A DNA stretch of 64,000 nt, from assembly GCA_034434235.1 (NCBI GenBank), contig DAOTZV010000129.1:24284-88283 (forward strand), in the 5' to 3' direction. Origin of the DNA: Anaerolineae bacterium (lineage in GTDB: Bacteria > Chloroflexota > Anaerolineae > CG2-30-64-16). The notes below the pieces were generated by a model. That model was given only the letters and a program-made list of their open reading frames with translations, was not told the origin of the DNA and did not search any database. Position 1 is the first letter of the stretch; every line of letters begins with the position of its first letter. Made by a program: the position numbers and the translations under genes. Shown here one piece after another: positions 14,243 through 61,466 of the stretch.

Positions 14243-17200
14243 ATGGGAATTTCAGTGCGCGCTTTGGCAATTGCGGTCATTTCCGCTGTGCTCGTTGTGG
14301 CCGGCGCGGGCGCCCTGGTGTGGGCGACGGGCACACAGGATGGCACCGGCGCAATTGCTGGCGTCGTCTTCTTTGACAAAGATGCCGACGCTGCGCGCGG
14401 ACCGGCCGAAGGCGGACTTGCCGGAGTGACGGTGGAACTGCGCGATGGCGTGACCGGCGGCCAGGCCGTGCATCGCTTTGTGCAAACCGCCTCTGACGGC
14501 TCCTTCAGCTTCGCGGAGCTGAGCGCTGGCGCCTACACGGTCGCCGTCCTCCCGGCCGATCCCTTCACGGCCACGACGACCAGCCCCGTAGCGGTGGTGG
14601 TCGACTCTGCGCCTGTCGTCGGCGTGGATTTCGGCGCCACGCTTCTCCAGACTCTCACCGGCACCGAATTCAACGATCTGAACGGCGATGGCGCCAAGGG
14701 ACCACGCGAGCCGGGCATCGCCGGCTGGCTGATCCAGGTCTTCGACGATGTCAACGGCAACGGCCTGGTCGACATGGGTGAGGCGTTGTTGGGCTCGGCC
14801 GTTAGCGACCACCAGGGAAACTGGAAGGTGTCCGGGCTGTTGCCGGGCCGCCGCGTGGTCGTGCGTCGGCCTCCGGCCGGCGCAGAAGCGATGGCCGATC
14901 CGCTCTCGCTGACGGCCGAGGAGGCCGGCGGCGCCGGCCATCTGTGGAACGGCCGGCCCGAGGCGCGGACGGCGCCTGCCTCTGTCAATGCCGATGCCGC
15001 GGCCTATGTGCCGGGCGAGCTGTTGGTGGGCGTTCAGCCGGGCCTCTCGCTGGCGCGCGTCGCCGAGATCTTCCGGGATCTCGGTCTCGCGATCAGAGAG
15101 CCGTTGGGCGGAGATGCCTATCGGGTGGCGACGACCGAGGACGCGGCCGATGCCGCGCTGGATGCGTTGAAACGCCTGCCCGAGGTGCGTTACGCTGAGC
15201 GCAACGGCCTCGTCAGCGCGCTGCTCACGCCGACCGAGCCGCTCTTCAACGATCCGTTTTACATCTTTGCGCCGCAGACGATCAACGCGCCGACGGCCTG
15301 GGACATCTCCACCGGTTCGCCGGAGGTGATCGTTGCCATCGTGGATTCGGGCATCTCGCTTTCGCATCCTGAGTTTGCCGGTCGTCTGGTTGCCGGCTGG
15401 GACTACGTCAACGGCGACAGCGATCCGTCCGATGACAACGGCCATGGCACACACGTGGCCGGCATCGTGGCCGCAGCCATGAACGGCGAGGGTGTGGTCG
15501 GCATCGCGCCGAACGTCAGGCTGATGCCCGTCAAGATCCTCAACGCATCGAAGACCGCCACCTGGGCCAACACGGCCTTGGGGATCCGCTATGCGGCCGA
15601 CCACGGCGCGAAGGTGATCAACCTGAGCATGGGAGGCACTTCCTACTCGGCCGCGCTTCAGGATGCCATCCGTTACGCCGCCGGCAAGGGGGTCGTCATA
15701 GTCGCTGCTGCGGGCAATCAGGGGAGCAGCGGGCCGTTCTATCCGGCCTATTTCGAGGAGACGATCGCCGTCGGCGCGACGGACGAACACGACGAATATT
15801 GGACGATCTCCAACTATGGCAACTGGGTGGACGTAACGGCGCCCGGCGCCAGCATCTACAGCACCTGGTGGACGGCGGACAACCCCAATACCTATGGCTT
15901 CATGAGCGGGACTTCGATGGCGGCCCCGCACGTCAGCGGCCTGGCCGCCCTTCTGCTTTCGTATCGGCCCCAGCTTTCGGCGGCCGATGTGCGCGCCATC
16001 ATCCAGCAGACCGCGGTGGACAAGGGCGCGGCCGGCTTCGATATTTACTACGGTTGGGGCCGCATTGACGCAGGCGCGGCCATGACACTGGCGACGACCT
16101 GGATCCCCTACACTCCCACGCCGACGGCCACGGCGACGGCCACGCCGTCGGCCACGCCGACAGCGACGCCAACGAATACACCGACACCGACGTCGACGAA
16201 TACGCCGACAGCGACGCCAACGAATACACCGACACCGACGGCAACGAATACGCCGACGCCCACGCCGACCGCCACGCCGACGGCAGTGCCGTATCTGAAG
16301 CGGGTCAACGCGGGCGGGGCGAGCTTCACCGACAGCCTGGGCCAGGTGTGGGATCCGGATCAGGCGTATGCGACCGGTGGCTGGGGCTATGTGAGCGGCA
16401 CGGCCAAATCCTCGACCACTGCGGTGAACGGCACGGTGGACGACCTGCTCTACCAGAAGTACCGCGAGGGGATGACCGCATATCAATTCACGGTGCCGAA
16501 CGGTCAGTACCAGGTGACGCTCAAATTCGCCGAGTTCGCCGCCAGCAGTTCGAAGCAGCGCATCATGAAGATCACGATCGAGGGCGTGGTGGTGGAAAGC
16601 GCGCTCAACGTGCTGGCGTTGGCCGGCAAGGCCACGGCTTTCGATCGCACCTACACGACGACGGTGGCCGACGGCATACTGAACATCGCCTTTGCGCAGA
16701 ACGGCGGCAGCTACAAGCCGATGGTGTCGGCCATCGAAGTGAAAAGCGCCGAGGCCGGGCCGACCGGCACGGGCACCGAGCCGACGCCGATAGCAACAAA
16801 TGTGCCGATCGCAACGGCAACGAATACGCCGACCCCGACGCCGACGCCAACCCGGCCGGCCTACAGCGTGCGCGTGGACGCGGGTGGCCCGACCTTTACC
16901 GATGGCCAGGGGCTCACCTGGCAGGCCGACCAGGCCTTCAGCGCGGGGTCGTGGGGCTACATCGGTGGGTCGCCCGGCTCCTCGACGGTCGCAGTGGCCG
17001 GCACGAAGGACGACCTGCTGTTCCAGAAGTACCGACAGGGGATGTCGGAGTTCAGGTTCACGGTGCCGAACGGCAGCTATCAGGTGCAGTTGCGGTTCGC
17101 CGAGTTCGCGGCCACCGGGCCGGGCCAGCGGGTGATGGAGATCACCCTGGAAGGGACGCCGGTGGAGAGCGCGTTGGACGTGTATGCGGCGGCCGGCGGC

Positions 17201-25116: not shown

Positions 25117-26934
25117 ATGAATCTGGGCGGATATGCCAATCGGGTGGCCTGGATCGACCTGACCAAAGGGACGGTCGAGTACAAGCCGATCGCGGAGGAG
25201 GACGCGCTGAAGTACATCGGCGCGCGCGGCCTGGGGGTGAAGTACGTCTTCGACAACGGCCCCAAGGTGGATCCGCTGTCGCCGGAAAACATCCTGTGCT
25301 TCATGAACGGCCCGTTGACCGGCACCGACGCCAACATGAGCGGTCGCATGGCCATCGTGACCAAGTCGCCGCTCACCGGCACCGTGACCGACTCGCATCA
25401 CGGCGGCTGGTCGGCGGCCCGGCTCAAGTGGGCGGGCTTCGACGGCCTGGTCTTCAAGGGCAAGGCCGAAAAGCCGGTCTATGCCTATGTGGAGAACGGC
25501 CAGGTGACGTTGCACGACGCCAGCGACCTGTGGGGCAAGGGGGTCCACGAGACGATCAAGATCCTGCAAGAGCGCTACGGCAACGAAAAGGAGCTGAGCA
25601 TCATCGCGATCGGCCCGGCCGGCGAGAACCTGGTGAAGTTCGCCTGCTGGGTGAACGAGAACGATCGCGCCTCGGGTCGCGGCGGCACCGGCTGCGTGGG
25701 CGGCAGCAAGCACCTGAAGGCCATCGTGATCCGCGGCAAGCACGCCGATCGGCCCCGGCCGGTGGACCGGGACGGCTGGAAGACGGCCCACCAGCGCGCG
25801 CTGGCTACCATCATGGACGAGGCCAACGTCACCTCCCCGCGCAAGGGCGGCCTGTCGGTCTACGGCACCAACGTGCTGATGAACATCACCAGCAACATGG
25901 GCGCGCTGCCCAGCTACAACAGCAAGGTGACCAGCTTCGGCGAGAACGGCGAGCTGATCAGCGGCGAGTGGGTCAAGGCGAACATCCTGGTGAATGACCC
26001 CACTTGCCACGCCTGCCCGGTGGCCTGCAAGAAGGAGGTCGAGGTCAAGGAAGGGCCGTTCAAGATCCACATGGAGAGCCTGGAGTACGAGCCGGCCTGG
26101 TCGCTGGGCGCCAACTGCGGCAACAACGACGCCGGCGCGATTGCCTACATGATTGACCGGGCCAACGACTACGGCTACGACGCCATCGAGATCGGCGATG
26201 TCCTCTCCCTGTACATGGAGTACAGCGAGCGGGGCTACGCCAACGGCGACGGCCTGGCCTGGGGCGACCGCCACGGCATGGTCGAGCTCATGCGCAAGAT
26301 CGCCTACCGCGAGGGGATCGGCGACATCCTGGCCGAGGGCACCGGCAAGGCGGCCGCGAAGCTGGGCCATCCCGAGCTGGGCATGCACGTCAAGGGCCAG
26401 GGCATCCCGGCCTACGATCCGCGCGGCCTCAAGGGCATGGGCATCGCCTACGCCACCTCGAACCGCGGCGCGTGCCACCTGCGCGGCTACACCCCGGCCA
26501 GCGAGCTGGGCCTGATCCCGCTCAAGACCGACCCGCTGGCCTGGAAGGGCAAGGGCGAGCTGCTCAAGCTGCTCCAGGACTTGCATGCGTTCTCCGACAG
26601 CCTGGATCTGTGCAAGTTCTCGGCCTTCGCCGAGGGCGCGGAGGAGTACGCCCTCCAGTACAGCGCCATGACCGGCCGGGCCATCACGGCCGATGAGGTG
26701 CTCAAGACCGGCGAGCGCATCTACAACCTGGAGCGCTACTACAACAACCTCTGCGGCTTCGACGGCAAGGACGACACCCTGCCGGAGCGCTTCCTGAAGG
26801 AGCCTTCCACCATGCCCGGCTCCCAGGGCCATGTCTGCGAGCTGGACCTGATGAAGGAGGAGTACTATCGGGTGCGCGGCTGGGATAACGGCGTGGTCAC
26901 CGAGGCCAAGCTGAAGGAGCTGGGGATCGCTTAA
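25117..26934 (+). CDS. aor: Tungsten-containing aldehyde:ferredoxin oxidoreductase (AOR family)
   Basis: N-terminal domain (GYANRVAWIDLTKGTVEY...GARGLGVKYV), AOR motifs including GRMAIVTKSPLTG, Cys ligands for the [4Fe-4S] cluster (CHACPVAC), about 605 aa. Confidence 0.9.
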   Translation: MNLGGYANRVAWIDLTKGTVEYKPIAEEDALKYIGARGLGVKYVFDNGPKVDPLSPENILCFMNGPLTGTDANMSGRMAIVTKSPLTGTVTDSHHGGWSAARLKWAGFDGLVFKGKAEKPVYAYVENGQVTLHDASDLWGKGVHETIKILQERYGNEKELSIIAIGPAGENLVKFACWVNENDRASGRGGTGCVGGSKHLKAIVIRGKHADRPRPVDRDGWKTAHQRALATIMDEANVTSPRKGGLSVYGTNVLMNITSNMGALPSYNSKVTSFGENGELISGEWVKANILVNDPTCHACPVACKKEVEVKEGPFKIHMESLEYEPAWSLGANCGNNDAGAIAYMIDRANDYGYDAIEIGDVLSLYMEYSERGYANGDGLAWGDRHGMVELMRKIAYREGIGDILAEGTGKAAAKLGHPELGMHVKGQGIPAYDPRGLKGMGIAYATSNRGACHLRGYTPASELGLIPLKTDPLAWKGKGELLKLLQDLHAFSDSLDLCKFSAFAEGAEEYALQYSAMTGRAITADEVLKTGERIYNLERYYNNLCGFDGKDDTLPERFLKEPSTMPGSQGHVCELDLMKEEYYRVRGWDNGVVTEAKLKELGIA

Positions 26935-26974
26935 AAAAGCTCACACAAAGACACAAAGAGCACAAATTGGACAA

Positions 26975-27016
26975 GATAGCAACCGGCACACTCCGCGCCG
27001 GTTGCTATCTTTTTAT
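26975..27016. terminator. Bidirectional intrinsic terminator (GATAGCAACCGGC-loop-GCCGGTTGCTATC-TTTTTA)
   Basis: 13-bp perfect stem plus T-run between the convergent AOR gene and the 27013-27921 gene. Confidence 0.7.
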
Positions 27017-40035: not shown

Positions 40036-41094
40036 TCACACCTGGCCGATGGCCGGATCGTCCAGCCGCACGCGGCGCCCCTCGCGCGTCGAGACATAGG
40101 TGGCGAGCACCATGCGGAGCACGGCGCGGCCTTCTTCGGCGGTTGCAATGGGAGGCCGCCGGCCGGCGAAGAAGTCGGCCAGGGGACCGGCCAGGCCGGC
40201 GATGCGCGCGCTGTGGTTGGCGGGGCTGGGGATGGCGCTCGGCGTCCAGTCCTTCTTGTCGAGCGTGTACCACTTCTGCCCGACCGCGCCGGCCGGCCGG
40301 GGCACGTTGCAGCTCGGCACGTCGCCGTAGTTCTGGATCAGGGTGCCCTTCTCGCCGATCACCTCTACCGTGTTTTCGGCCGCCACGCAGGTGAAGGAGC
40401 AGACGACCTCGGCCAACATGCCGTCGGCGTAGCGGTAGATGGCGACGCCGTTGTCGTTGGGCGCCCGCGGATTCAAGAGCGAGGCGATCTCGGCCGTCAC
40501 GGTCTCCGGCTCGCCCAGCAGCCAGTAGATGAAGTCCACCGGGTGCGCGGCGTCGTCGGCCCAGATGTCGCGGTTGAGCTGCGGGTCGAAGTGCCACATG
40601 CCGGCGACATCCCAGAGCTGGGTGGGCAATCCGTGCCGTCGGCGCACCATGAAGATCTTGCCGAGCGCGCCGCTCTCGATGATCTGCTTGATCTCGATGT
40701 TTTGTGGGTCCACGCGCATCTGCCAGGCCATGGTGAAGGGCACGCGATGCCGCTCGACCGCGGCGACGATGCGGTCGGCCTGGGCCATGGTGAGCGCGAT
40801 CGGCTTTTGCAGCGCGATCATCTTGCCCGCGGCGGCCGCCTTCTCGACCACATCGGCATGCATGGAGGTTTCGACGCCGATGACGACCGCCGGCATGTCG
40901 GGCCGGGCCAGGAACGCGTCCAGGTCGGCGTAGCCGGCGACGCCGAACTGGTCGCAGTTCTTCTGCAGCCGGGCTGCGTCGTGATCCCACCCCGCGACCA
41001 GGTTGATCTCCAGGCCGGGGTTCTGTTTCCACTGATGGCAATACATCCCGACATGCCCGTGGGCGAAGCCGAGGACGCCGAGGTTGATGGTCAT
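40036..41094 (-). CDS. Gfo/Idh/MocA-family NAD(P)-dependent oxidoreductase
   Basis: N-terminal Rossmann fold MTINLGVLGFAHGHVGMY..., about 350 aa; start at the ATG after GGAG. The track ORF extends upstream through the heptamer array in an out-of-context frame. Confidence 0.8.
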   Translation of the reverse strand: MTINLGVLGFAHGHVGMYCHQWKQNPGLEINLVAGWDHDAARLQKNCDQFGVAGYADLDAFLARPDMPAVVIGVETSMHADVVEKAAAAGKMIALQKPIALTMAQADRIVAAVERHRVPFTMAWQMRVDPQNIEIKQIIESGALGKIFMVRRRHGLPTQLWDVAGMWHFDPQLNRDIWADDAAHPVDFIYWLLGEPETVTAEIASLLNPRAPNDNGVAIYRYADGMLAEVVCSFTCVAAENTVEVIGEKGTLIQNYGDVPSCNVPRPAGAVGQKWYTLDKKDWTPSAIPSPANHSARIAGLAGPLADFFAGRRPPIATAEEGRAVLRMVLATYVSTREGRRVRLDDPAIGQV

Positions 41095-41106
41095 GGTGGA
41101 TGCTCC

Positions 41107-41160
41107 GTGAAACGTAAAACGTAAAACGTAAAACGTAAAACGTGAAGCGTGAAATGTGAG
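41107..41160. repeat. Tandem heptamer array (R)AAACGT x7 (mRNA-sense ACGTTTY) filling the intergenic 5' leader of the Gfo/Idh/MocA gene
   Basis: Read directly: GAAACGT AAAACGT AAAACGT AAAACGT AAAACGT GAAGCGT GAAATGT; it ends 13 nt before the start codon. Confidence 0.7.
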
Positions 41161-41168
41161 CAGTTTGG

Positions 41169-43175
41169 TTACTGGATCTCGACCTCCCCACACCGGATCT
41201 GGCCCGGCGCGCCGGGCGCTTCGAGGATGAGCCGATAGGTTCCGCGCGGGGTCACGGGGTTCAGGTTGACGTCGTGATGGCTGCGCACGATCTCGCCGGC
41301 CACCCAGCGGTCGGCCGGCCAGAGGCCGAACGCGTCGTTCGGCCGGGCCATGCTCTCGCCCCACACCTGGCCCTGCGCGTCCACCAGCCGGAAGCGCGGG
41401 CGGAGCTCGCCGGCGGCCGGCCGGTCGCCGGGCCGCCAGTAGCTCGTTACGTGGATCCATGCGCTCGGCGGATGGAACAGGTCGTCGCGCGGGCGCAAGG
41501 CGGCCGGATCATACAGACAGGCCAACGGCTGCACGCCGTCCAGGGCCGGCCAATCGCTGCGAGACGGCACGTTCGACGGCAGGTCGGCCAGCCGATAGCG
41601 CTGGTCGTAGACGTGGATGGCGATCCCCGGCGGGAATACCTCGGTGATCAGCGGATAGCGCGCGGCGAACCAGCCCAACACCACGTTGTTCGGGTCCAGC
41701 TCCTGATGGTGCGACTGTACCACCCACACCGCGTCGAAGGGGGCCAGCCCCGCCAGCGGCCCCTCCACCTGGTCCGCATCGCGGATCCGGTCGGTGAACG
41801 GGACGAAGATGTCCTGCGGGCCGCGGAAGTAGCGCCGGAACGCGATCTGGACGTAGTCGGGCTGGATCAGGATGGCGTCATGGGGGCCGGCGTGCGCCTG
41901 CACGAACGCCGCGGCCTCGCGCCATGCCTCGCGGCGATTCTGCGGCGCCCAATCGTAGGGCAGCGCGGCCGCCGTCGTCGCGAAGATCAGGCCGGCCGCC
42001 GCCAACCCGACCGGCCGGCGCCAGGCCCACAGCCGGTCGAGCGCCCGGCCCAGCGCCACGCAGAGCGCCGGCGCCAGGGCGATCTGGTAGCGCGTTTCGG
42101 CGAAGGTGCGGCTGTCGCGGCTCAGCAGGGCGCCGCCGATCAGGATCACGACGAGCGGCCAGATGAGGATGTAGAGTCCGCCACTTCGCCGGTTGCCGCG
42201 ATCGGCCGGCAGGAAGCAGCCGAGGAGGGCCAGCGCTCCCATCCCCGCGGCCAGGATCGTCGTCAGGCGGGCGTCCCATGCGGGCCAGCCGAGCGTGTAG
42301 GCCCTCAGCATCGTCGCGAGGGGCGCCCACATTCCCTCGAACGGCCGACCCGGTACGGCCTCGGCACCGCTCACCCGCCACGCCGACCAGGCCAGCGGCA
42401 GGAAGAGCACTGCGGCGATGCCCAGGCCCAGGACGCCCAGCCAGAAATCGCGATCCGCGTCCCGTTCGCCCCGCCGCGTCCAGCGCGCCATCAGCAGCCA
42501 GAGCCCGGCCACCGGCAGCAGGAAGGCACTGTAGAGATAGCTGTAGAGCGCGGCCGCGAAGCCGCCGCTGAGCAACAGCAGGGCGAGCGAGGACGGCCCC
42601 CCCCTCCCCCCAACTTTGGGGGGCGCCCCCCCTTCCCCCCAATCTTGGGGGGCCAGGGGGGCGGCCCCCCCCTCCCCCCCAATGTTGGGGGGCCAGGGGC
42701 GCGGGGGCGTGCGCCATGCGCCATGCGCCGCCCGCAGGAGGCCGTAAAGCCCCACCAGCGCGAAGGCCGTCGCCGGCATGAACATGCGCGCTTCCTGGCT
42801 ATACCACACCAGGAACGGGTTGATCGCCAGCAGGAGCGCGGCGAACGCGGCCCCGCGTGGCCCGCTCAGCCGCCGGCCGATTCCGTAGAGCGGCAACACG
42901 GCCAGCGCGCCGATCAGCGCGCCGAGGGAACGCACGGCCAGATCGCTCCCGCCGACCAGCGCCGTCCAGCCGTGCAGCAGGAGGTAATAGAGCGGCGGGT
43001 GCTTGTCCTGGACGAGCGCCATGCCCACGCGCCAGATCTCGCCGGCCGGCCGACCGGCCCAGTACGTACTGACGACCTCGTCGAACCACAGGCTATGGTA
43101 CGTGAGATGGTAGAAGCGCACGCCGAGCGCCAGGACCAGGATCCAGCTCAGCGGATGGCACAGTAATCGCCTCAT
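41169..43175 (-). CDS. Membrane glycosyltransferase, family 39 / PMT-ArnT-like (dolichyl-phosphate-mannose-protein mannosyltransferase superfamily)
   Basis: N-terminal multi-TM region with the family-typical WFDEVVSTYWAG...DKHPPLYYLL, and a large C-terminal soluble domain. It contains a low-complexity Pro/Gly insertion encoded by the repeat at 42596-42716. Confidence 0.7.
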   Translation of the reverse strand: MRRLLCHPLSWILVLALGVRFYHLTYHSLWFDEVVSTYWAGRPAGEIWRVGMALVQDKHPPLYYLLLHGWTALVGGSDLAVRSLGALIGALAVLPLYGIGRRLSGPRGAAFAALLLAINPFLVWYSQEARMFMPATAFALVGLYGLLRAAHGAWRTPPRPWPPNIGGEGGAAPLAPQDWGEGGAPPKVGGRGGPSSLALLLLSGGFAAALYSYLYSAFLLPVAGLWLLMARWTRRGERDADRDFWLGVLGLGIAAVLFLPLAWSAWRVSGAEAVPGRPFEGMWAPLATMLRAYTLGWPAWDARLTTILAAGMGALALLGCFLPADRGNRRSGGLYILIWPLVVILIGGALLSRDSRTFAETRYQIALAPALCVALGRALDRLWAWRRPVGLAAAGLIFATTAAALPYDWAPQNRREAWREAAAFVQAHAGPHDAILIQPDYVQIAFRRYFRGPQDIFVPFTDRIRDADQVEGPLAGLAPFDAVWVVQSHHQELDPNNVVLGWFAARYPLITEVFPPGIAIHVYDQRYRLADLPSNVPSRSDWPALDGVQPLACLYDPAALRPRDDLFHPPSAWIHVTSYWRPGDRPAAGELRPRFRLVDAQGQVWGESMARPNDAFGLWPADRWVAGEIVRSHHDVNLNPVTPRGTYRLILEAPGAPGQIRCGEVEIQ
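42596..42716. repeat. Three tandem copies of a palindromic G/C-run element (C7-8 T C6-7 / AAYNTT / G6) inside the GT39 coding sequence
   Basis: Read directly: CCCCCCCCTCCCCCC-AACTTT-GGGGGG, CCCCCCCTTCCCCCC-AATCTT-GGGGGG, CCCCCCCCTCCCCCCC-AATGTT-GGGGGG. Translated on the gene strand as ...PPNIGGEGGAAPLAPQDWGEGGAPPKVGGRGG.... Confidence 0.7.
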
Positions 43176-56494: not shown

Positions 56495-56932
56495 TTATGC
56501 GTCATTCATCGGTCGGGCTGATCGGTTGCACAATCCCCGCGCTCGATACACCTCGGCCGCCTCGCGCACGAACGCGGCCGTCTCGTGCGCCTGGAACTCG
56601 TCGGCCAGGCGGGCCGCCAGCGCCAGCATCTCTTCGTATGTGGCACGGCCCGGCCGCAGCGTCTCGTACATGCGCAGCAGCTCGGCGTTGGGGACGGCGG
56701 TCAGCTCGGCCGCGCGGCGCAGGTTGGCCGCCAGCTGCGGAAAGCCGGCCCGCGCGGCGATGGCGGCCTGCGCGCGCAACGCCTCGGCCGTGATGCGCAG
56801 GTCATCGTCGGTCAGTTCGCCCGCGGCCAACCGCTCCAGCGTGATCTCGTCCAGCGGCCGGCCGCTCGCCGCCCGCAACTCTTCACCTGCGTTCTCCGTC
56901 AACGGATAAACACTCTCCATGCTGATCTCCAA
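56495..56932 (-). CDS. pduE: Coenzyme B12-dependent diol/glycerol dehydratase small (gamma) subunit (PduE/DhaB3-like)
   Basis: ...LRMYETLRPGRATYEEMLALAARLADEFQAHETAAFVREAAEVYRARGL aligns with the PduE C-terminus (IYNALRPFRS...AAFVRESAEVYQQR). Confidence 0.75.
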   Translation of the reverse strand: MEISMESVYPLTENAGEELRAASGRPLDEITLERLAAGELTDDDLRITAEALRAQAAIAARAGFPQLAANLRRAAELTAVPNAELLRMYETLRPGRATYEEMLALAARLADEFQAHETAAFVREAAEVYRARGLCNRSARPMNDA

Positions 56933-56968
56933 CCCCCAACCCCCAATCCCTAACCCCTATCCCCCGCC

Positions 56969-59287: not shown

Positions 59288-59352
59288 GGGTAGTCGAGTA
59301 GTCGAGTAGTCAGATAGTCAAGTAGTCAGATAGTCGGGTAATCGGACAGTCA
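59288..59352. repeat. Tandem octamer array (GAGTAGTC-like x8; mRNA-sense GACTACTC) directly abutting the dehydratase start codon
   Basis: Read directly: GGTAGTC GAGTAGTC GAGTAGTC AGATAGTC AAGTAGTC AGATAGTC GGGTAATC GGACAGTC; no canonical SD between the array and the ATG. Confidence 0.7.
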
Positions 59353-59524: not shown

Positions 59525-60277
59525 CTACGCCTTCCCCATCCTGCGCAGGTTGTCCAGGCATCGCGCCACCACTTCCAGCGGCGGGTACTTGTAGCTTTCC
59601 TGCTCGACGATGTACCACTCGGTGCCGCCCTGCGTCTCGCACAGCTCGAAGACGCGTTGCCACGGCACATCCCCTTCGCCCAGGATCGCCAGCGGATCGG
59701 TCGCCGAGTACTCCTTGAGGTGCACGGTGATCGCCCGGCCGGGGTAGCGCGCCAGGTAGGGGATCGGGTCGCCGCCGCCGTGCAGCGCGTTGCCGATGTC
59801 CACCTGCATGATCACCTCTTTGCGGGTGTTGCTGAAGAAGGTATCCCACGGCAGCTCGCCTTCCAGCGGCTGGAATTCGATGGCGTGATTGTGATAGCCG
59901 ACGAGCATGCCGTAGGGCCGGAGCCGCTCGGCGATCTCGTTGAAGATGCCGGCCGTGCGCAGCCACGCGGCGCGCGAGCTGCGATATTCCTCGGCCAGCG
60001 CCGGCACCACCAGGTACTTGTTGCCGAGGATCTGGTTGAACTCGACGGTGCGGAGCAGCTCATCGCCCAAGAGGGTGTCGAGCCGGATGTGCGTGCCGCA
60101 GCACTTCAAGCCCAGGTCGTCGAGCATGGCGCGCAGTTCCCTGGCCGTGCGATCGTAGTAGCCGGCGAACTCAACGCCGACGTAGCCCATCTTCGCCACC
60201 GCGGCCAACGTGCCGGGCAGATCCGCCGCGCACTCGTGGCGAACGGAATAGAGTTGGAGTCCGATTGGGATGGTCAT
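59525..60277 (-). CDS. Sugar phosphate isomerase/epimerase (xylose-isomerase-like TIM barrel)
   Basis: Family-typical blocks IGLQLYSV, GYHNHAIEF and the metal-ligand pattern; SD GGAGG before the ATG. Confidence 0.7.
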   Translation of the reverse strand: MTIPIGLQLYSVRHECAADLPGTLAAVAKMGYVGVEFAGYYDRTARELRAMLDDLGLKCCGTHIRLDTLLGDELLRTVEFNQILGNKYLVVPALAEEYRSSRAAWLRTAGIFNEIAERLRPYGMLVGYHNHAIEFQPLEGELPWDTFFSNTRKEVIMQVDIGNALHGGGDPIPYLARYPGRAITVHLKEYSATDPLAILGEGDVPWQRVFELCETQGGTEWYIVEQESYKYPPLEVVARCLDNLRRMGKA

Positions 60278-60294
60278 GGGATGTCCTCCGATAG

Positions 60295-60365
60295 TCAAAC
60301 GTCAAACGTAAAACGTCAAACGTAAAACGTCAAACGTGAAACGTGAGACGTTTTACGTTTTACTT
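60295..60365. repeat. Tandem heptamer array (C/A)AAACGT x8 followed by two inverted copies (ACGTTTT), occupying the whole intergenic leader of the isomerase gene
   Basis: Read directly: CAAACGT CAAACGT AAAACGT CAAACGT AAAACGT CAAACGT GAAACGT GAGACGT TTTACGT TTTAC; same unit as the array at 41107-41160. Confidence 0.7.
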
Positions 60366-61466
60366 TTCACGATACTCTATCCCCGCCGCCTCGATCTCCG
60401 CAGCCGTCACTTCGCGGCCGAGGTGGCTGGAGAGATAGATGCCCTCGGTGATCAGGGCGGTCTTGAGCGCCAGGCCGGCCGTGTCGAGCAGCGGCACGCG
60501 GCCGAGCTGCGCCCAAACCCAGTGGCGCTGCGAATGGTCGAAGCCGGCCTCGAGCGGGTTGCACTGATGCCAGCGCCAGTCGGCCTGTTTGATGTCGAAC
60601 GTGGCGTTCATCTCCATGTCCGACAGGGTGGTGAAGTAGCCGAACGGCTCGACCCGCAACCCGGCGTGCGAGCCGAACACGCGGTCGCCGTCCGAGCTGT
60701 CGGCGTGGATCGCCCATGCTTCTTCGATGAAGTAGGTGATCCCGCCGGCCAGGCGCACCAGGCCCATGCCGAGCTCCTCGACGTTGTAATTGCCCGAGGC
60801 CCGGCGGTCGGGGTACATGTTGTCGAGCATCTGATAGGTGCGGCCCGAGACGGTCTCGACGGCCGGATTGCCGAGCAACCACATCATGCGCGCGATGTGA
60901 TAGACCGCCATGTCCACCAGCGCGCCGCCGCCGGCCATCTCTTTCTGGACGAAGGCCGGCGTGCCGTAGCCGTCCACCCACGGCCGGCCGCGGCGGCGGT
61001 AATGCGACGACTTGGCGTAGTAGATCTGGCCGAGCTGGCCTTCGTCAATCATCCGTTTGGCCGCGCGCGCCTCCGGCGTGTAGAGCGTGTTGAGCTGGAT
61101 GTGGAGCATCCGGCCGGTGCGCCGGGCGGTGTCGTACATCGCCTTTGCCTCTGAGTATACCCAAGACATCGGCTTTTCGCAATAGACGTTCTTGCCCGCC
61201 TCCAGCGCGGCGATGGTCACCGCCGCGTGCAATCGGTTGTGCAACGCCACGTCTACCGACTGGATGTCGTCTCGTCGGAGCAGCTCCCGGTAGTCGCTGT
61301 AAACCGCCACCTCCGGGCCAATGGCCTGGGCCACCCGCCGCGCTTCGTCCTCGCGCAGGTCGCACACGGCCACGATCTCGGCTTCGGGGACCTCTTTGTA
61401 GCGCTCGACGTGGACCTTGCCGATCTGGCCCACGCCGATGATGCCGATGCGGACTTTGTCGGTCAT
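60360..61466 (-). CDS. Gfo/Idh/MocA-family NAD(P)-dependent oxidoreductase
   Basis: N-terminal Rossmann fold MTDKVRIGIIGVGQIGKVHVERY, EKP motif (YCEKPMS), 368 aa. Confidence 0.8.
   Translation of the reverse strand: MTDKVRIGIIGVGQIGKVHVERYKEVPEAEIVAVCDLREDEARRVAQAIGPEVAVYSDYRELLRRDDIQSVDVALHNRLHAAVTIAALEAGKNVYCEKPMSWVYSEAKAMYDTARRTGRMLHIQLNTLYTPEARAAKRMIDEGQLGQIYYAKSSHYRRRGRPWVDGYGTPAFVQKEMAGGGALVDMAVYHIARMMWLLGNPAVETVSGRTYQMLDNMYPDRRASGNYNVEELGMGLVRLAGGITYFIEEAWAIHADSSDGDRVFGSHAGLRVEPFGYFTTLSDMEMNATFDIKQADWRWHQCNPLEAGFDHSQRHWVWAQLGRVPLLDTAGLALKTALITEGIYLSSHLGREVTAAEIEAAGIEYREK

What the first reader, a model, noticed from the sequence alone, without database searches (positions are those of the whole stretch)
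41107..41160. Heptamer (ACGTTTY)n tandem array as the entire 5' leader of a Gfo/Idh/MocA oxidoreductase gene
Seven heptamer units ((R)AAACGT on the + strand, ACGTTTY in mRNA sense) fill the 75-bp gap between the GT39 stop and the oxidoreductase start, ending 13 nt before GGAG-ATG. The same heptamer array recurs 19 kb away upstream of a sugar-phosphate isomerase (60295-60365). Short perfect direct repeats at 7-bp period are unusual for bacterial operators, which are usually palindromes. Possible roles: a binding platform for a regulatory RNA-binding or DNA-binding protein, or a phase-variable slipped-strand repeat tuning expression of sugar catabolic genes.
Basis: seen in the sequence. Interest (0 to 1): 0.8.

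Follow-up and report, generated by a model that had tools for sequence, protein, structure and literature searches.

The report
Chloroflexota intergenic heptamer repeat arrays
The two runs of a 7-base repeat (ACGTTTY) between genes are real, but they belong to a widespread family of short tandem repeats found next to unrelated genes across Chloroflexota, much like the long-known, still unexplained heptamer repeats of cyanobacteria, and are not a switch specific to sugar genes.

Summary
Both arrays exist as described and are far beyond chance (14 matches against 0.06 expected). They lie on the coding (-) strand in 74- and 82-nt gaps inside co-directional gene clusters. Each ends at the Shine-Dalgarno sequence of the next gene. 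Array B also has 2-3 inverted units that cover the upstream stop codon and give a predicted 23-bp hairpin.

The same unit occurs in more than 117 genome stretches, 65 of them named Chloroflexota. There it precedes unrelated genes (ATP synthase beta, RecF-like, PBP1A, LysA, COX3 and others). Period-7 runs of many other unit sequences are also over-represented, and the window has a GGGGTTR leader array as well.

The arrays are polar. Their 3' end sits about 25 nt before a start codon, or directly on the stop codon of an opposite-strand gene. They avoid divergent (promoter) gaps.

Copy number changes slowly. It is identical in 4-8 assemblies, differs by one unit in a 99% strain, and ranges from 0 to 9 units among 80-89% orthologs.

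Verdict: this is a new Chloroflexota family of the STRR / TAACTGA-type intergenic heptamer repeats. It is probably transcribed spacer RNA. A sugar-regulon operator is refuted, and fast phase variation is not supported. The function is still unproven; a predicted "frees the RBS" effect was tested in silico and not found.

The parts
41109..41157 (-). Array A: 7 tandem heptamers. In mRNA sense: ACATTTC ACGCTTC ACGTTTT x4 ACGTTTC.
   Evidence: identical in 4 independent assemblies
41103..41108 (-). Partial last unit ACG fused to the Shine-Dalgarno GGAG (41103-41106) of the Gfo/Idh/MocA gene, whose ATG is at 41092-41094.
   Evidence: '...TCACGGAG' is kept in all array-bearing orthologs
40036..41094 (-). 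Downstream gene of array A: Gfo/Idh/MocA oxidoreductase, 352 aa.
   Evidence: PF01408, PF02894, PF22725
41169..43175 (-). Upstream gene of array A: PMT_2 (GT39-like) membrane glycosyltransferase. Its stop TAA is at 41169-41171.
   Evidence: PF13231
60296..60344 (-). Array B, sense arm: 7 tandem heptamers ACGTTTC/G/T/G/T/G/G. A degenerate unit ACTATCG and the SD GGAGG (60285-60289) follow; the ATG is at 60275-60277.
   Evidence: copy number identical in 8 assemblies, with only point changes
60348..60371 (-). Array B, inverted arm. In mRNA sense: CGUGAAAAGUAAAACGUAAAACGU. It overlaps the last codons and the TAA stop (60360-60362) of the upstream Gfo/Idh/MocA ORF (60360-61466).
60307..60371 (-). 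Predicted RNA hairpin: a 23-bp stem (7+2+14 pairs) formed by the inverted arm and sense units. The last two units and the SD stay outside the stem.
   Evidence: MFE -39.2 kcal/mol, z = -4.15, 0 of 200 shuffles as stable
59525..60277 (-). Downstream gene of array B: sugar-phosphate isomerase/epimerase (AP_endonuc_2 TIM barrel), 250 aa.
   Evidence: PF01261
56929..56965 (-). Same class, different unit: GGGGTTR heptamers (about 4-5 copies) fill the gap up to the GGAGA-ATG of the next gene (ATG at 56920).
59290..59351 (-). Related leader array with period 8: YGACTAYY x ~7, ending 2 nt before ATG 59287 of a diol-dehydratase-like gene.

Best explanation
The two arrays are copies of a dispersed, lineage-wide family of intergenic heptanucleotide tandem repeats (unit ACGTTTY) typical of Chloroflexota. 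This is the same kind of element as the cyanobacterial STRR heptamers and the TAACTGA repeats of Beggiatoaceae.

In this window they sit inside co-directional gene clusters with no promoter-like site. They are therefore most likely transcribed as intercistronic spacer / 5' leader RNA that runs directly into the Shine-Dalgarno sequence.

The most likely mode of action (inferred, not shown) is a generic, gene-class-independent RNA tract with a 7-nt register. It would be bound by a single-strand nucleic-acid-binding protein (cold-shock-domain or S1-type, with a footprint of about 7 nt). It would set how efficiently the downstream cistron is initiated, or how the transcript is processed. Unit number would be a slowly drifting tuning parameter generated by slipped-strand mispairing.

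Array A is an unstructured single arm. Array B has an added inverted arm and forms a 23-bp hairpin across the upstream stop codon, which fits a processing/stability or coupling element.

Confidence by step. Shown: existence, family membership, distribution, position and orientation rules, lack of a gene-class link, and slow copy-number change. My confidence in this classification is about 0.85. Inferred: transcription, a binding factor and an effect on expression. My confidence in this functional part is about 0.3.
For: - Non-random arrays.
- More than 117 stretches in species-representative genomes carry 4 or more units. 65 of 117 record titles name Chloroflexota lineages.
- In 881 kb, perfect runs of 3 or more copies number 204 at period 7, against 26, 3, 5, 10 and 2 at periods 4, 5, 6, 8 and 9. 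About 85 of the period-7 runs have other unit sequences. The window itself has a GGGGTTR leader array.
- Sense arrays end a median of 25 nt before a same-strand start codon (25 of 45 lie at 10-40 nt), with a normal SD in between.
- Downstream genes are unrelated in function, and 26 of 30 were validated by Pfam.
- Arrays are depleted from divergent gaps (2, against 22 convergent and 65 co-directional; baseline 60, 64 and 239; p = 4e-5). Neither window gap has a sigma-70-like site.
- The oxidoreductase leader keeps in-phase units ending in TCACGGAG in 83-100% orthologs, even where the upstream gene differs. Unit counts are 7, 6, 3-4, 3, 1 and 9.
- Array A is predicted unstructured (z = -0.69) and array B a strong hairpin (z = -4.15).
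- Literature parallels: TAACTGA repeats just upstream of start codons, with S1, Csp and CsrA proposed as binders (PMC4679880). Nostoc heptamers near start codons (10.1101/2022.06.06.494920). The transcribed (ATCTTTC)n 5'-UTR hairpin cut by RNase III in H. influenzae (PMC12721329).
Against: - No transcript or binding data exist.
- About 40% of arrays in co-directional gaps are antisense to the flanking genes (28 against 41). 22 lie in convergent gaps with no start codon to serve.
- Many unrelated heptamer sequences share the period, which argues against one sequence-specific binder.
- Predicted RBS accessibility is no better with the native array (0.474) than with random same-locus sequence (0.482) or with the array deleted (0.490); n = 31, p = 0.57.
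- Array B is absent from 88% and 79% orthologs, and array A from the 80% ortholog. The arrays are therefore dispensable.
Confidence: 0.5

Rival explanations
1. Non-functional by-product. A lineage-specific mutational process (replication or transcription-associated slippage that favours 7-nt registers, or a copy-and-paste process) seeds and expands heptamer arrays. Purifying selection then leaves them only where they do no harm. The positional rules would follow from coding constraints: the sense strand has no stop or ATG/GTG codons, while the antisense strand supplies TGA/TAA in all three frames.
For: - Period 7 is over-represented whatever the unit sequence.
- Both orientations are common.
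- Presence or absence and unit number vary among orthologs.
- Antisense arrays often supply the stop codon of the adjacent ORF.
- Depletion from divergent gaps could reflect damage to promoters.
- No gain in RBS accessibility.
Against: - The same unit recurs across several Chloroflexota classes and at many loci per genome. Free drift of a neutral repeat would not preserve it.
- There is a sharp polarity: the 3' end lies on a gene boundary and the 5' end about 60 nt away. Inverted pairs are 24:1 in one arrangement. Asymmetric decay does not explain this.
- Units stay in phase up to the SD in the oxidoreductase leader, despite complete turnover of the upstream context.
Confidence: 0.3
2. DNA-level boundary element. 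The double- or single-stranded DNA array is bound by a nucleoid-associated or other DNA-binding protein, or adopts slipped or cruciform structures. It would mark or insulate gene ends independently of the direction of transcription.
For: - The polarity is defined relative to the nearest gene boundary on either strand, not relative to transcription.
- The [RAAACGT]n-spacer-[ACGTTTY]m arrangement is strand-symmetric and strongly preferred (24 against 1).
- Arrays occur in convergent gaps.
Against: - A 7-bp period is out of phase with the DNA helix, so successive sites face different sides.
- No candidate protein is known.
- Many different unit sequences exist.
- There is no evidence of conserved spacing to promoters or terminators.
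Confidence: 0.1
3. Phase-variable contingency switch. Frequent slipped-strand gain or loss of units would switch or grade expression of the downstream gene within a population, as in H. influenzae hmw1A (ATCTTTC)n.
For: - The tract is a heptamer tandem repeat in a leader.
- Units differ by one (7 against 6) between strains with 99% identical protein.
- Two assemblies break inside array A.
- The known precedent is PMC12721329.
Against: - Copy number is identical in 4 assemblies (A) and 8 assemblies (B) from different samples, while point substitutions did accumulate in B.
- Units are heterogeneous; the longest perfect run is 4 units in A, which slows slippage.
- Family members precede housekeeping genes.
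Confidence: 0.05
4. Operator or binding-site array of a transcription factor (or RNA-binding attenuation protein) dedicated to sugar catabolic genes.
For: - Both window arrays precede sugar-type enzymes (Gfo/Idh/MocA, sugar-phosphate isomerase).
- AAACG/CGTTT resembles LacI-family half-sites (own knowledge).
Against: - Family members precede unrelated genes: ATP synthase beta, a RecF/SMC-family ATPase, PBP1A, LysA, COX3, Dtd, FTHFS, a kinase and others.
- No promoter-like sites in the gaps, and arrays avoid divergent gaps.
- The sugar-isomerase ortholog in a related MAG lacks the array, while the oxidoreductase ortholog in the same MAG has 9 units.
- Gfo/Idh/MocA and AP_endonuc_2 genes are simply very abundant here; the window has at least three such genes.
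Confidence: 0.03

Closest known systems
Cyanobacterial STRR (short tandemly repeated repetitive) heptanucleotide sequences (Mazel et al. 1990, own knowledge; recent Nostoc work in 10.1101/2022.06.06.494920)
   Same: Both are 7-nt tandem units in several sequence families per genome. Both are dispersed at many intergenic sites, often close to start codons or promoters, next to unrelated genes, and of unresolved function.
   Different: The phylum differs (Chloroflexota) and so does the unit (ACGTTTY against CCCCAGT, TTGGTCA, CAACAGT, TTTTGAA or GACYAAT). Here I also find a gene-boundary polarity, near-absence from divergent gaps, and frequent inverted arms. I do not know whether these have been described for STRRs.
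TAACTGA direct repeats of marine Beggiatoaceae, some cyanobacteria and Bacteroidetes (MacGregor 2015, PMC4679880)
   Same: Both are heptamer direct repeats, mostly intergenic and in 'forward' orientation just upstream of start codons. Downstream genes show no functional pattern and include essential genes. A post-transcriptional role via S1, Csp or CsrA-type binders has been proposed.
   Different: TAACTGA repeats overlap the expected RBS, and most downstream ORFs lack an SD. The ACGTTTY arrays stop just before a canonical GGAG/GGAGG. The unit and the taxa differ. Here a second class sits antisense on stop codons.
Haemophilus influenzae hmw1A/hmw2A (ATCTTTC)n simple sequence repeat (PMC12721329)
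   Same: Both are heptamer repeats with a similar T-rich unit, transcribed within a 5' UTR. The repeats form one arm of a long hairpin, as in array B. RNase III cleaves that hairpin, and unit number grades expression.
   Different: The hmw tract is a long, perfect, hypermutable tract at one or two adhesin loci of a pathogen. The arrays here are short, imperfect and stable across assemblies, and occur at many housekeeping and metabolic loci.
Direct-repeat operators of transcription factors (for example SARP heptamers at 11-bp spacing, DeoR/IolR-type direct repeats; own knowledge)
   Same: Both involve short direct repeats rather than palindromes.
   Different: Those sites lie in promoters, are spaced in phase with the helix (about 10-11 bp) and define coherent regulons. 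The arrays here have a contiguous 7-bp period, avoid promoter gaps, and precede unrelated genes.

Membership tests
Dispersed intergenic heptamer tandem repeats (STRR / TAACTGA kind) | Head-to-tail units of exactly 7 nt, 3 or more copies | tested here: met
   TRF period 7, 7.0 and 7.3-7.9 copies, 87-90% matches; sequence read directly
Dispersed intergenic heptamer tandem repeats (STRR / TAACTGA kind) | The same unit at many dispersed loci, in intergenic DNA | tested here: met
   2 arrays in 64 kb. More than 117 stretches in other genomes, several per MAG (for example 6 loci of one MAG). 165 of 204 period-7 runs lie outside called genes.
Dispersed intergenic heptamer tandem repeats (STRR / TAACTGA kind) | Several heptamer sequence families co-exist, with period 7 itself over-represented | tested here: met
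   Period 7 gives 204 runs against 26 or fewer for any other period from 4 to 9. About 85 have other units. GGGGTTR is present in the window.
Dispersed intergenic heptamer tandem repeats (STRR / TAACTGA kind) | No common function among adjacent genes | tested here: met
   Pfam on 30 downstream genes gave unrelated families
Cyanobacterial STRR in the strict sense | Unit sequences STRR1-3 (CCCCAGT, TTGGTCA, CAACAGT) in (heterocystous) cyanobacteria | tested here: not met
   The unit is ACGTTTY and the hosts are Chloroflexota. It is therefore the same kind, but not a member of STRR1-3.
TAACTGA repeats (MacGregor 2015) | Repeats overlap the RBS position and the downstream ORFs mostly lack an SD | tested here: not met
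   Arrays end 10-40 nt before the start codon with GGAG/GGAGG/AGGAG in between
Phase-variable SSR contingency locus | Unit number varies within and between closely related populations | tested here: not met
   4 assemblies (A) and 8 assemblies (B) have the same unit number. The only difference is one unit in a 99% strain. Read-level heteroplasmy was not testable.
Phase-variable SSR contingency locus | Long perfect tract | tested here: not met
   The longest perfect run is 4 units (A). B alternates G and T variants.
Transcription-factor operator array | Located in a promoter region, overlapping -35/-10 or upstream of them | tested here: not met
   No sigma-70-like site in either gap. Arrays are depleted in divergent gaps. 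This was a consensus scan only; Chloroflexota promoters were not verified.
Transcription-factor operator array | Coherent regulon | tested here: not met
Known structured RNA families (Rfam 15) | Match at the family gathering score | tested here: not met
   No hit in the window at gathering thresholds. With an E-value threshold of 1 all matches lie far below gathering scores: miRNA-precursor plus two sRNA/antitoxin models over array B's hairpin, and one Yfr1 match beside array A.
RNase III-processed repeat hairpin (hmw-like) | Duplex of 20 bp or more in the transcript formed by the repeat tract | tested here: inconclusive
   Array B is predicted to form a 23-bp stem (z = -4.15). Array A forms none. 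Cleavage is not testable here.

The most novel reading that the evidence does not exclude
A conserved 7-nt-register system operates in Chloroflexota, and possibly also in cyanobacteria, Beggiatoaceae, filamentous Desulfococcaceae and some Bacteroidota. A trans-acting single-strand nucleic-acid-binding protein, or a repeat-adding or repeat-maintaining enzyme, recognises or writes heptamer arrays. These arrays cap intergenic spacers pointing outward: (ACGUUUY)n in front of ribosome-binding sites and (RAAACGU)n on stop codons. This would give a genome-wide post-transcriptional layer that sets initiation, termination coupling or processing at cistron boundaries.
Probability: 0.2. Interest if true: 0.85.

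Novelty: new member of a known kind. Interest (0 to 1): 0.55.

Why it matters
Intergenic heptamer repeats have been known in cyanobacteria since 1990 and in giant sulfur bacteria since 2015, without an established function.

This work finds a third, deep-branching phylum with an abundant family of its own, a clear excess of period 7 whatever the unit sequence, and simple positional rules. The rules are an outward polarity toward start and stop codons, avoidance of promoter gaps, and a preferred inverted arrangement. These give testable constraints on the mechanism.

The finding also points to cultivable thermophilic or mesophilic Chloroflexota as test organisms.

On the practical side, the arrays break short-read assemblies and can extend ORF calls, because the sense strand has no stop codon in any frame.

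Tried and rejected
- **Known RNA family:** there is nothing in Rfam at gathering thresholds. All sub-threshold hits (E-value up to 1) are far below gathering: hairpin-like miRNA-precursor and two sRNA/antitoxin models over array B, plus one Yfr1 match beside array A.
- **Promoter inside or beside the arrays:** no two-hexamer sigma-70 match in either gap. In the 87% ortholog a perfect TATAAT lies about 45 nt upstream of the array, but the scan did not call a promoter, so this is only a weak hint that the array is in a 5' UTR.
- **Sugar regulon:** rejected by Pfam on 30 downstream genes.
- **"The array keeps the RBS unpaired":** partition-function accessibility of positions -18 to +6 was compared for the native array, 30 random same-locus replacements, and deletion, at 31 loci. 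There was no difference.
- **Positional polarity as an artefact of asymmetric decay:** rejected, because in-phase flanking units decay symmetrically.
- **"Stop-abutting" arrays as artefacts of shadow ORFs:** checked by codon-position GC and by comparison with alternative ORFs. Most adjacent ORFs look genuine (250-640 aa, GC3 > GC1 > GC2), but they were not validated by homology.
- **TCACGGAG as a general RBS context that seeds arrays:** rejected, at 2 hits against 2.4 expected.
- **Population survey of array A alleles in metagenome contigs:** both scans returned nothing. The second pattern was mis-specified for the window allele.
- **Literature:** no paper in the held library links heptamer repeats with Chloroflexota or contains the unit string.
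- **Caveat on gene calls:** genes in the 117 loci came from my own crude ORF caller. The first two versions picked antisense shadow ORFs and were discarded.

Full report
**1. What is in the sequence**

All genes around both sites are on the - strand.

*Array A.* It occupies 41109-41157, as seven in-phase units. In mRNA sense the 74-nt gap reads TAA-CCAAACTGCTC-ACATTTC-ACGCTTC-(ACGTTTT)4-ACGTTTC-ACGGAGCATCCACC-ATG. The array therefore runs straight into the Shine-Dalgarno GGAG (41103-41106) of a 352-aa Gfo/Idh/MocA oxidoreductase (40036-41094). It starts 11 nt after the stop of a PMT_2/GT39-like gene.

*Array B.* It fills an 82-nt gap between a second Gfo/Idh/MocA gene (60360-61466) and an AP_endonuc_2 sugar-phosphate isomerase (59525-60277). 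In mRNA sense it reads ...CGU GAA AAG UAA AACGUAAAACGU CUC ACGUUUC ACGUUUG ACGUUUU ACGUUUG ACGUUUU ACGUUUG ACGUUUG ACUAUCGGAGGACAUCCC AUG. It thus has seven sense units (60296-60344) plus 2-3 inverted units (60348-71) that include the upstream stop codon.

*Chance.* The repeats are far beyond chance. There are 14 matches to AAACGTNAAACGT (up to 1 mismatch) against 0.06 expected, and 9 to ACGTTTYACG against 0.11. All lie in the two arrays.

**2. Local properties**

- Neither gap contains a sigma-70-like two-hexamer site.
- Rfam has no family for either region.
- Folded as RNA, array A with its flanks is no more structured than shuffles (z = -0.69).
- Array B forms a 23-bp hairpin (60307-60371; -39.2 kcal/mol; z = -4.15). 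Its 5' arm contains the last codons and the UAA of the upstream ORF. The last two units and the SD lie outside the stem.
- The same operon-like cluster holds two more short-period arrays that end at start codons. One is GGGGTTR x ~4-5 at 56929-56965. The other is YGACTAYY octamers at 59290-59351.
- The ACGTTTY arrays are therefore one family among several "leader repeats" in this genome.

**3. The family elsewhere**

By record title:

| Group | Loci |
|---|---|
| Chloroflexota lineages (Anaerolineae/-ales, Caldilineaceae, Litorilinea, Thermoflexales, Ardenticatenaceae, Promineifilaceae, Chloroflexia) | 65 |
| One filamentous Desulfococcaceae genome (arrays up to 41 units) | 5 |
| Unnamed MAGs | 11 |
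| Scattered over other phyla | remainder |

Arrays are often flanked by runs of related heptamers (ACGCATC, ACGTATC, ACGCTTC) and of unrelated ones (AGATTTC, TTGGATG, CAATCTC).

In the 881 kb held, I counted perfect runs of 3 or more copies by period:

| Period | 4 | 5 | 6 | 7 | 8 | 9 |
|---|---|---|---|---|---|---|
| Runs | 26 | 3 | 5 | 204 | 10 | 2 |

About 85 of the period-7 runs have units other than ACGTTTN. The 7-nt period, not only this unit, is what these genomes favour.

**4. Position and orientation rules**

These rest on my own crude gene calls. They were checked by Pfam for 30 downstream genes, of which 26 had hits. For the stop-side ORFs they were checked by codon-position GC.

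- Of 146 arrays, most are intergenic.
- In the array's own orientation (ACGTTTY), the 3' end lies next to a gene boundary. It lies either a median of 25 nt before a same-strand start codon (25 of 45 at 10-40 nt, with a normal SD between), or within 10 nt of the stop codon of an opposite-strand gene (31 of 59).
- In the stop-side cases the TGA or TAA is often part of the first GTGAAAC or GTAAAAC unit.
- The 5' end lies a median of about 60 nt from its neighbour.
- This is not caused by hidden degenerate units, because in-phase flanking units decay symmetrically on both sides.
- When two arms are present, they are arranged [RAAACGT]n-spacer-[ACGTTTY]m in 24 cases and the other way round in 1. 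Array B is such a pair; array A is a single arm.
- Gaps with arrays are 65 co-directional, 22 convergent and only 2 divergent. Array-free gaps in the same loci are 239, 64 and 60 (p = 4e-5 for convergent against divergent). Arrays therefore avoid promoter-only gaps and lie downstream of at least one gene.

**5. No gene-class association**

Genes directly downstream of sense arrays encode (by Pfam domain):

- a tRNA methyltransferase, PBP1A, a GNAT acetyltransferase and AnmK
- ATP synthase beta, a response regulator, DUF503 and an HD hydrolase
- an ABC permease, a RecF/SMC-family ATPase, an ABC-transporter ATPase, COX3 and DUF374
- a diaminopimelate-decarboxylase-type enzyme, a ketoacyl synthase and a Ser/Thr kinase
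- a DHODH-like enzyme, D-Tyr-tRNA deacylase, a phosphodiesterase, formate-THF ligase and an epimerase

The sugar-gene link seen in the window is most simply explained by the abundance of such genes there.

**6. Evolutionary behaviour**

*Array A, same strain.* The oxidoreductase protein is encoded identically on 6 metagenome contigs. The four that span the gap have exactly the same 7 units. Two contigs end inside the array.

*Array A, orthologs.*

| Ortholog identity | Locus | Units |
|---|---|---|
| 99% | L123 | 6, with two unit substitutions |
| 89% | L124, L143 (different upstream gene) | 3-4, differing from each other by substitutions |
| 87% | L125-127 (divergent upstream gene; TATAAT about 45 nt upstream) | 3 |
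| 85-86% | L128, L129 | about 1 (ACACCTCACGGAG) |
| about 83% | L110 | 9 |
| 80% | L144-147 | none |

*Array B.* It is identical in unit number in 8 assemblies, with three point variants. It is absent from the 88% and 79% orthologs. The 88% ortholog without array B comes from the same MAG as L110, which has 9 units at the array A locus.

*Conclusion.* The arrays are gained, lost, expanded and contracted on the time scale of sequence divergence, not on that of a contingency locus.

**7. Interpretation**

The robust conclusion (about 0.85) is one of classification. This is a new, Chloroflexota-centred family of the known kind of dispersed intergenic heptamer tandem repeats: cyanobacterial STRRs and the TAACTGA repeats of Beggiatoaceae (PMC4679880; 10.1101/2022.06.06.494920). 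I found no paper linking such repeats with Chloroflexota.

On mechanism, several points favour a transcribed-spacer (RNA-level) role:

- the location in co-directional gaps without promoters
- the end-on junction with the SD
- retention of in-phase units in the oxidoreductase leader after complete turnover of the upstream context
- depletion from divergent gaps

A protein with a footprint of about 7 nt (cold-shock-domain or S1-type, as MacGregor proposed) is the most plausible reader of such tracts. Array B's long duplex across the stop codon resembles the RNase III-processed repeat hairpin of H. influenzae hmw (PMC12721329). These steps are inferred (about 0.3).

The simple variant "the array keeps the RBS unpaired" was tested in silico and not supported (0.474 against 0.482 against 0.490; p = 0.57).

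The main rival (about 0.3) is a non-functional by-product of a 7-nt-biased mutational process filtered by selection. It explains the multiplicity of unit sequences, both orientations and the lability. It does not explain the deep conservation of the unit or the polarity.

Three further rivals rank lower:

- A DNA-level boundary element (about 0.1) would fit the strand-symmetric polarity.
- Fast phase variation (about 0.05) is disfavoured.
- A sugar-regulon operator (about 0.03) is disfavoured.

**8. Verdict**

A binding platform is possible. The sugar-specific reading and fast phase variation are not supported.
- Novelty: new member of a known kind.
- Interest 0.55. The kind has been functionally unexplained for decades, and this family adds clear, testable positional rules. 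The element itself is neither unique to this locus nor mechanistically resolved here.

Noticed in passing
window 56929-56965 (- strand): A GGGGTTR heptamer array (GGGGTTA GGGATTG GGGGTTG GGGGTTG) fills the gap between a stop codon and the GGAGA-ATG of the next gene. It has four or more G-tracts, so an RNA or DNA G-quadruplex is conceivable, and the unit resembles telomeric repeats.
   Followed up: partly
window 59290-59351 (- strand): An octamer array (YGACTAYY x ~7) ends 2 nt before the ATG (59287) of a diol/glycerol-dehydratase-like gene (Pfam Dehydratase_LU/MU), with no obvious SD. Its unit number is the same in 8 assemblies, with one T/C variant.
   Followed up: partly
window 26943-27013 (+ strand): ACACAAAG x3 lies directly after the stop of the + strand gene 25117-26934. 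A terminator-like hairpin (GATAGCAACCGGC...GCCGGTTGCTATC) and a T-run follow.
   Followed up: no
window 42596-42704, inside the PMT_2 ORF (41169-43175): A G/C-rich 29-40-nt tandem repeat lies within the coding sequence (a PPNIGGEGGAAPLAPQDWGEGG...-type segment). The called product is 668 aa here, 673 aa in L118 and 704 aa in L119, although the downstream oxidoreductase is identical. Start-codon choice versus repeat number was not checked.
   Followed up: no
window 16116-16284: A 12/48-nt periodic repeat (ACGCCG-rich; TRF period 48 x 2.2-2.7) lies inside a 1026-aa ORF. It is probably a low-complexity linker.
   Followed up: no
L121 and L122 (position 1), also L033, L091, L103: Contigs from several assemblies begin or end inside ACGTTTY arrays. 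The arrays act as assembly breakpoints, as expected if the same k-mers recur at many loci of the genome.
   Followed up: partly
L032 5415-5702; L083 2427-2644; L017 7886-7998: Very long mixed arrays occur: 41 units of ACGTTTC/ACGTATC in a filamentous Desulfococcaceae genome, 31 units in a Flavobacterium MAG, and 16 or more units at a locus edge in a Chloroflexota MAG.
   Followed up: no
window 40036-41460 (- strand frame): The sense strand of the array has no stop codon in any frame, so the oxidoreductase ORF stays open through array A up to 41460. Naive longest-ORF calling gives a false 122-codon N-terminal extension that overlaps the PMT_2 gene.
   Followed up: yes
L140-L142 2306-3750: The 79% ortholog of the isomerase gene is followed by a BglII-type restriction endonuclease and an N6/N4 methyltransferase pair. 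DprA lies upstream.
   Followed up: no
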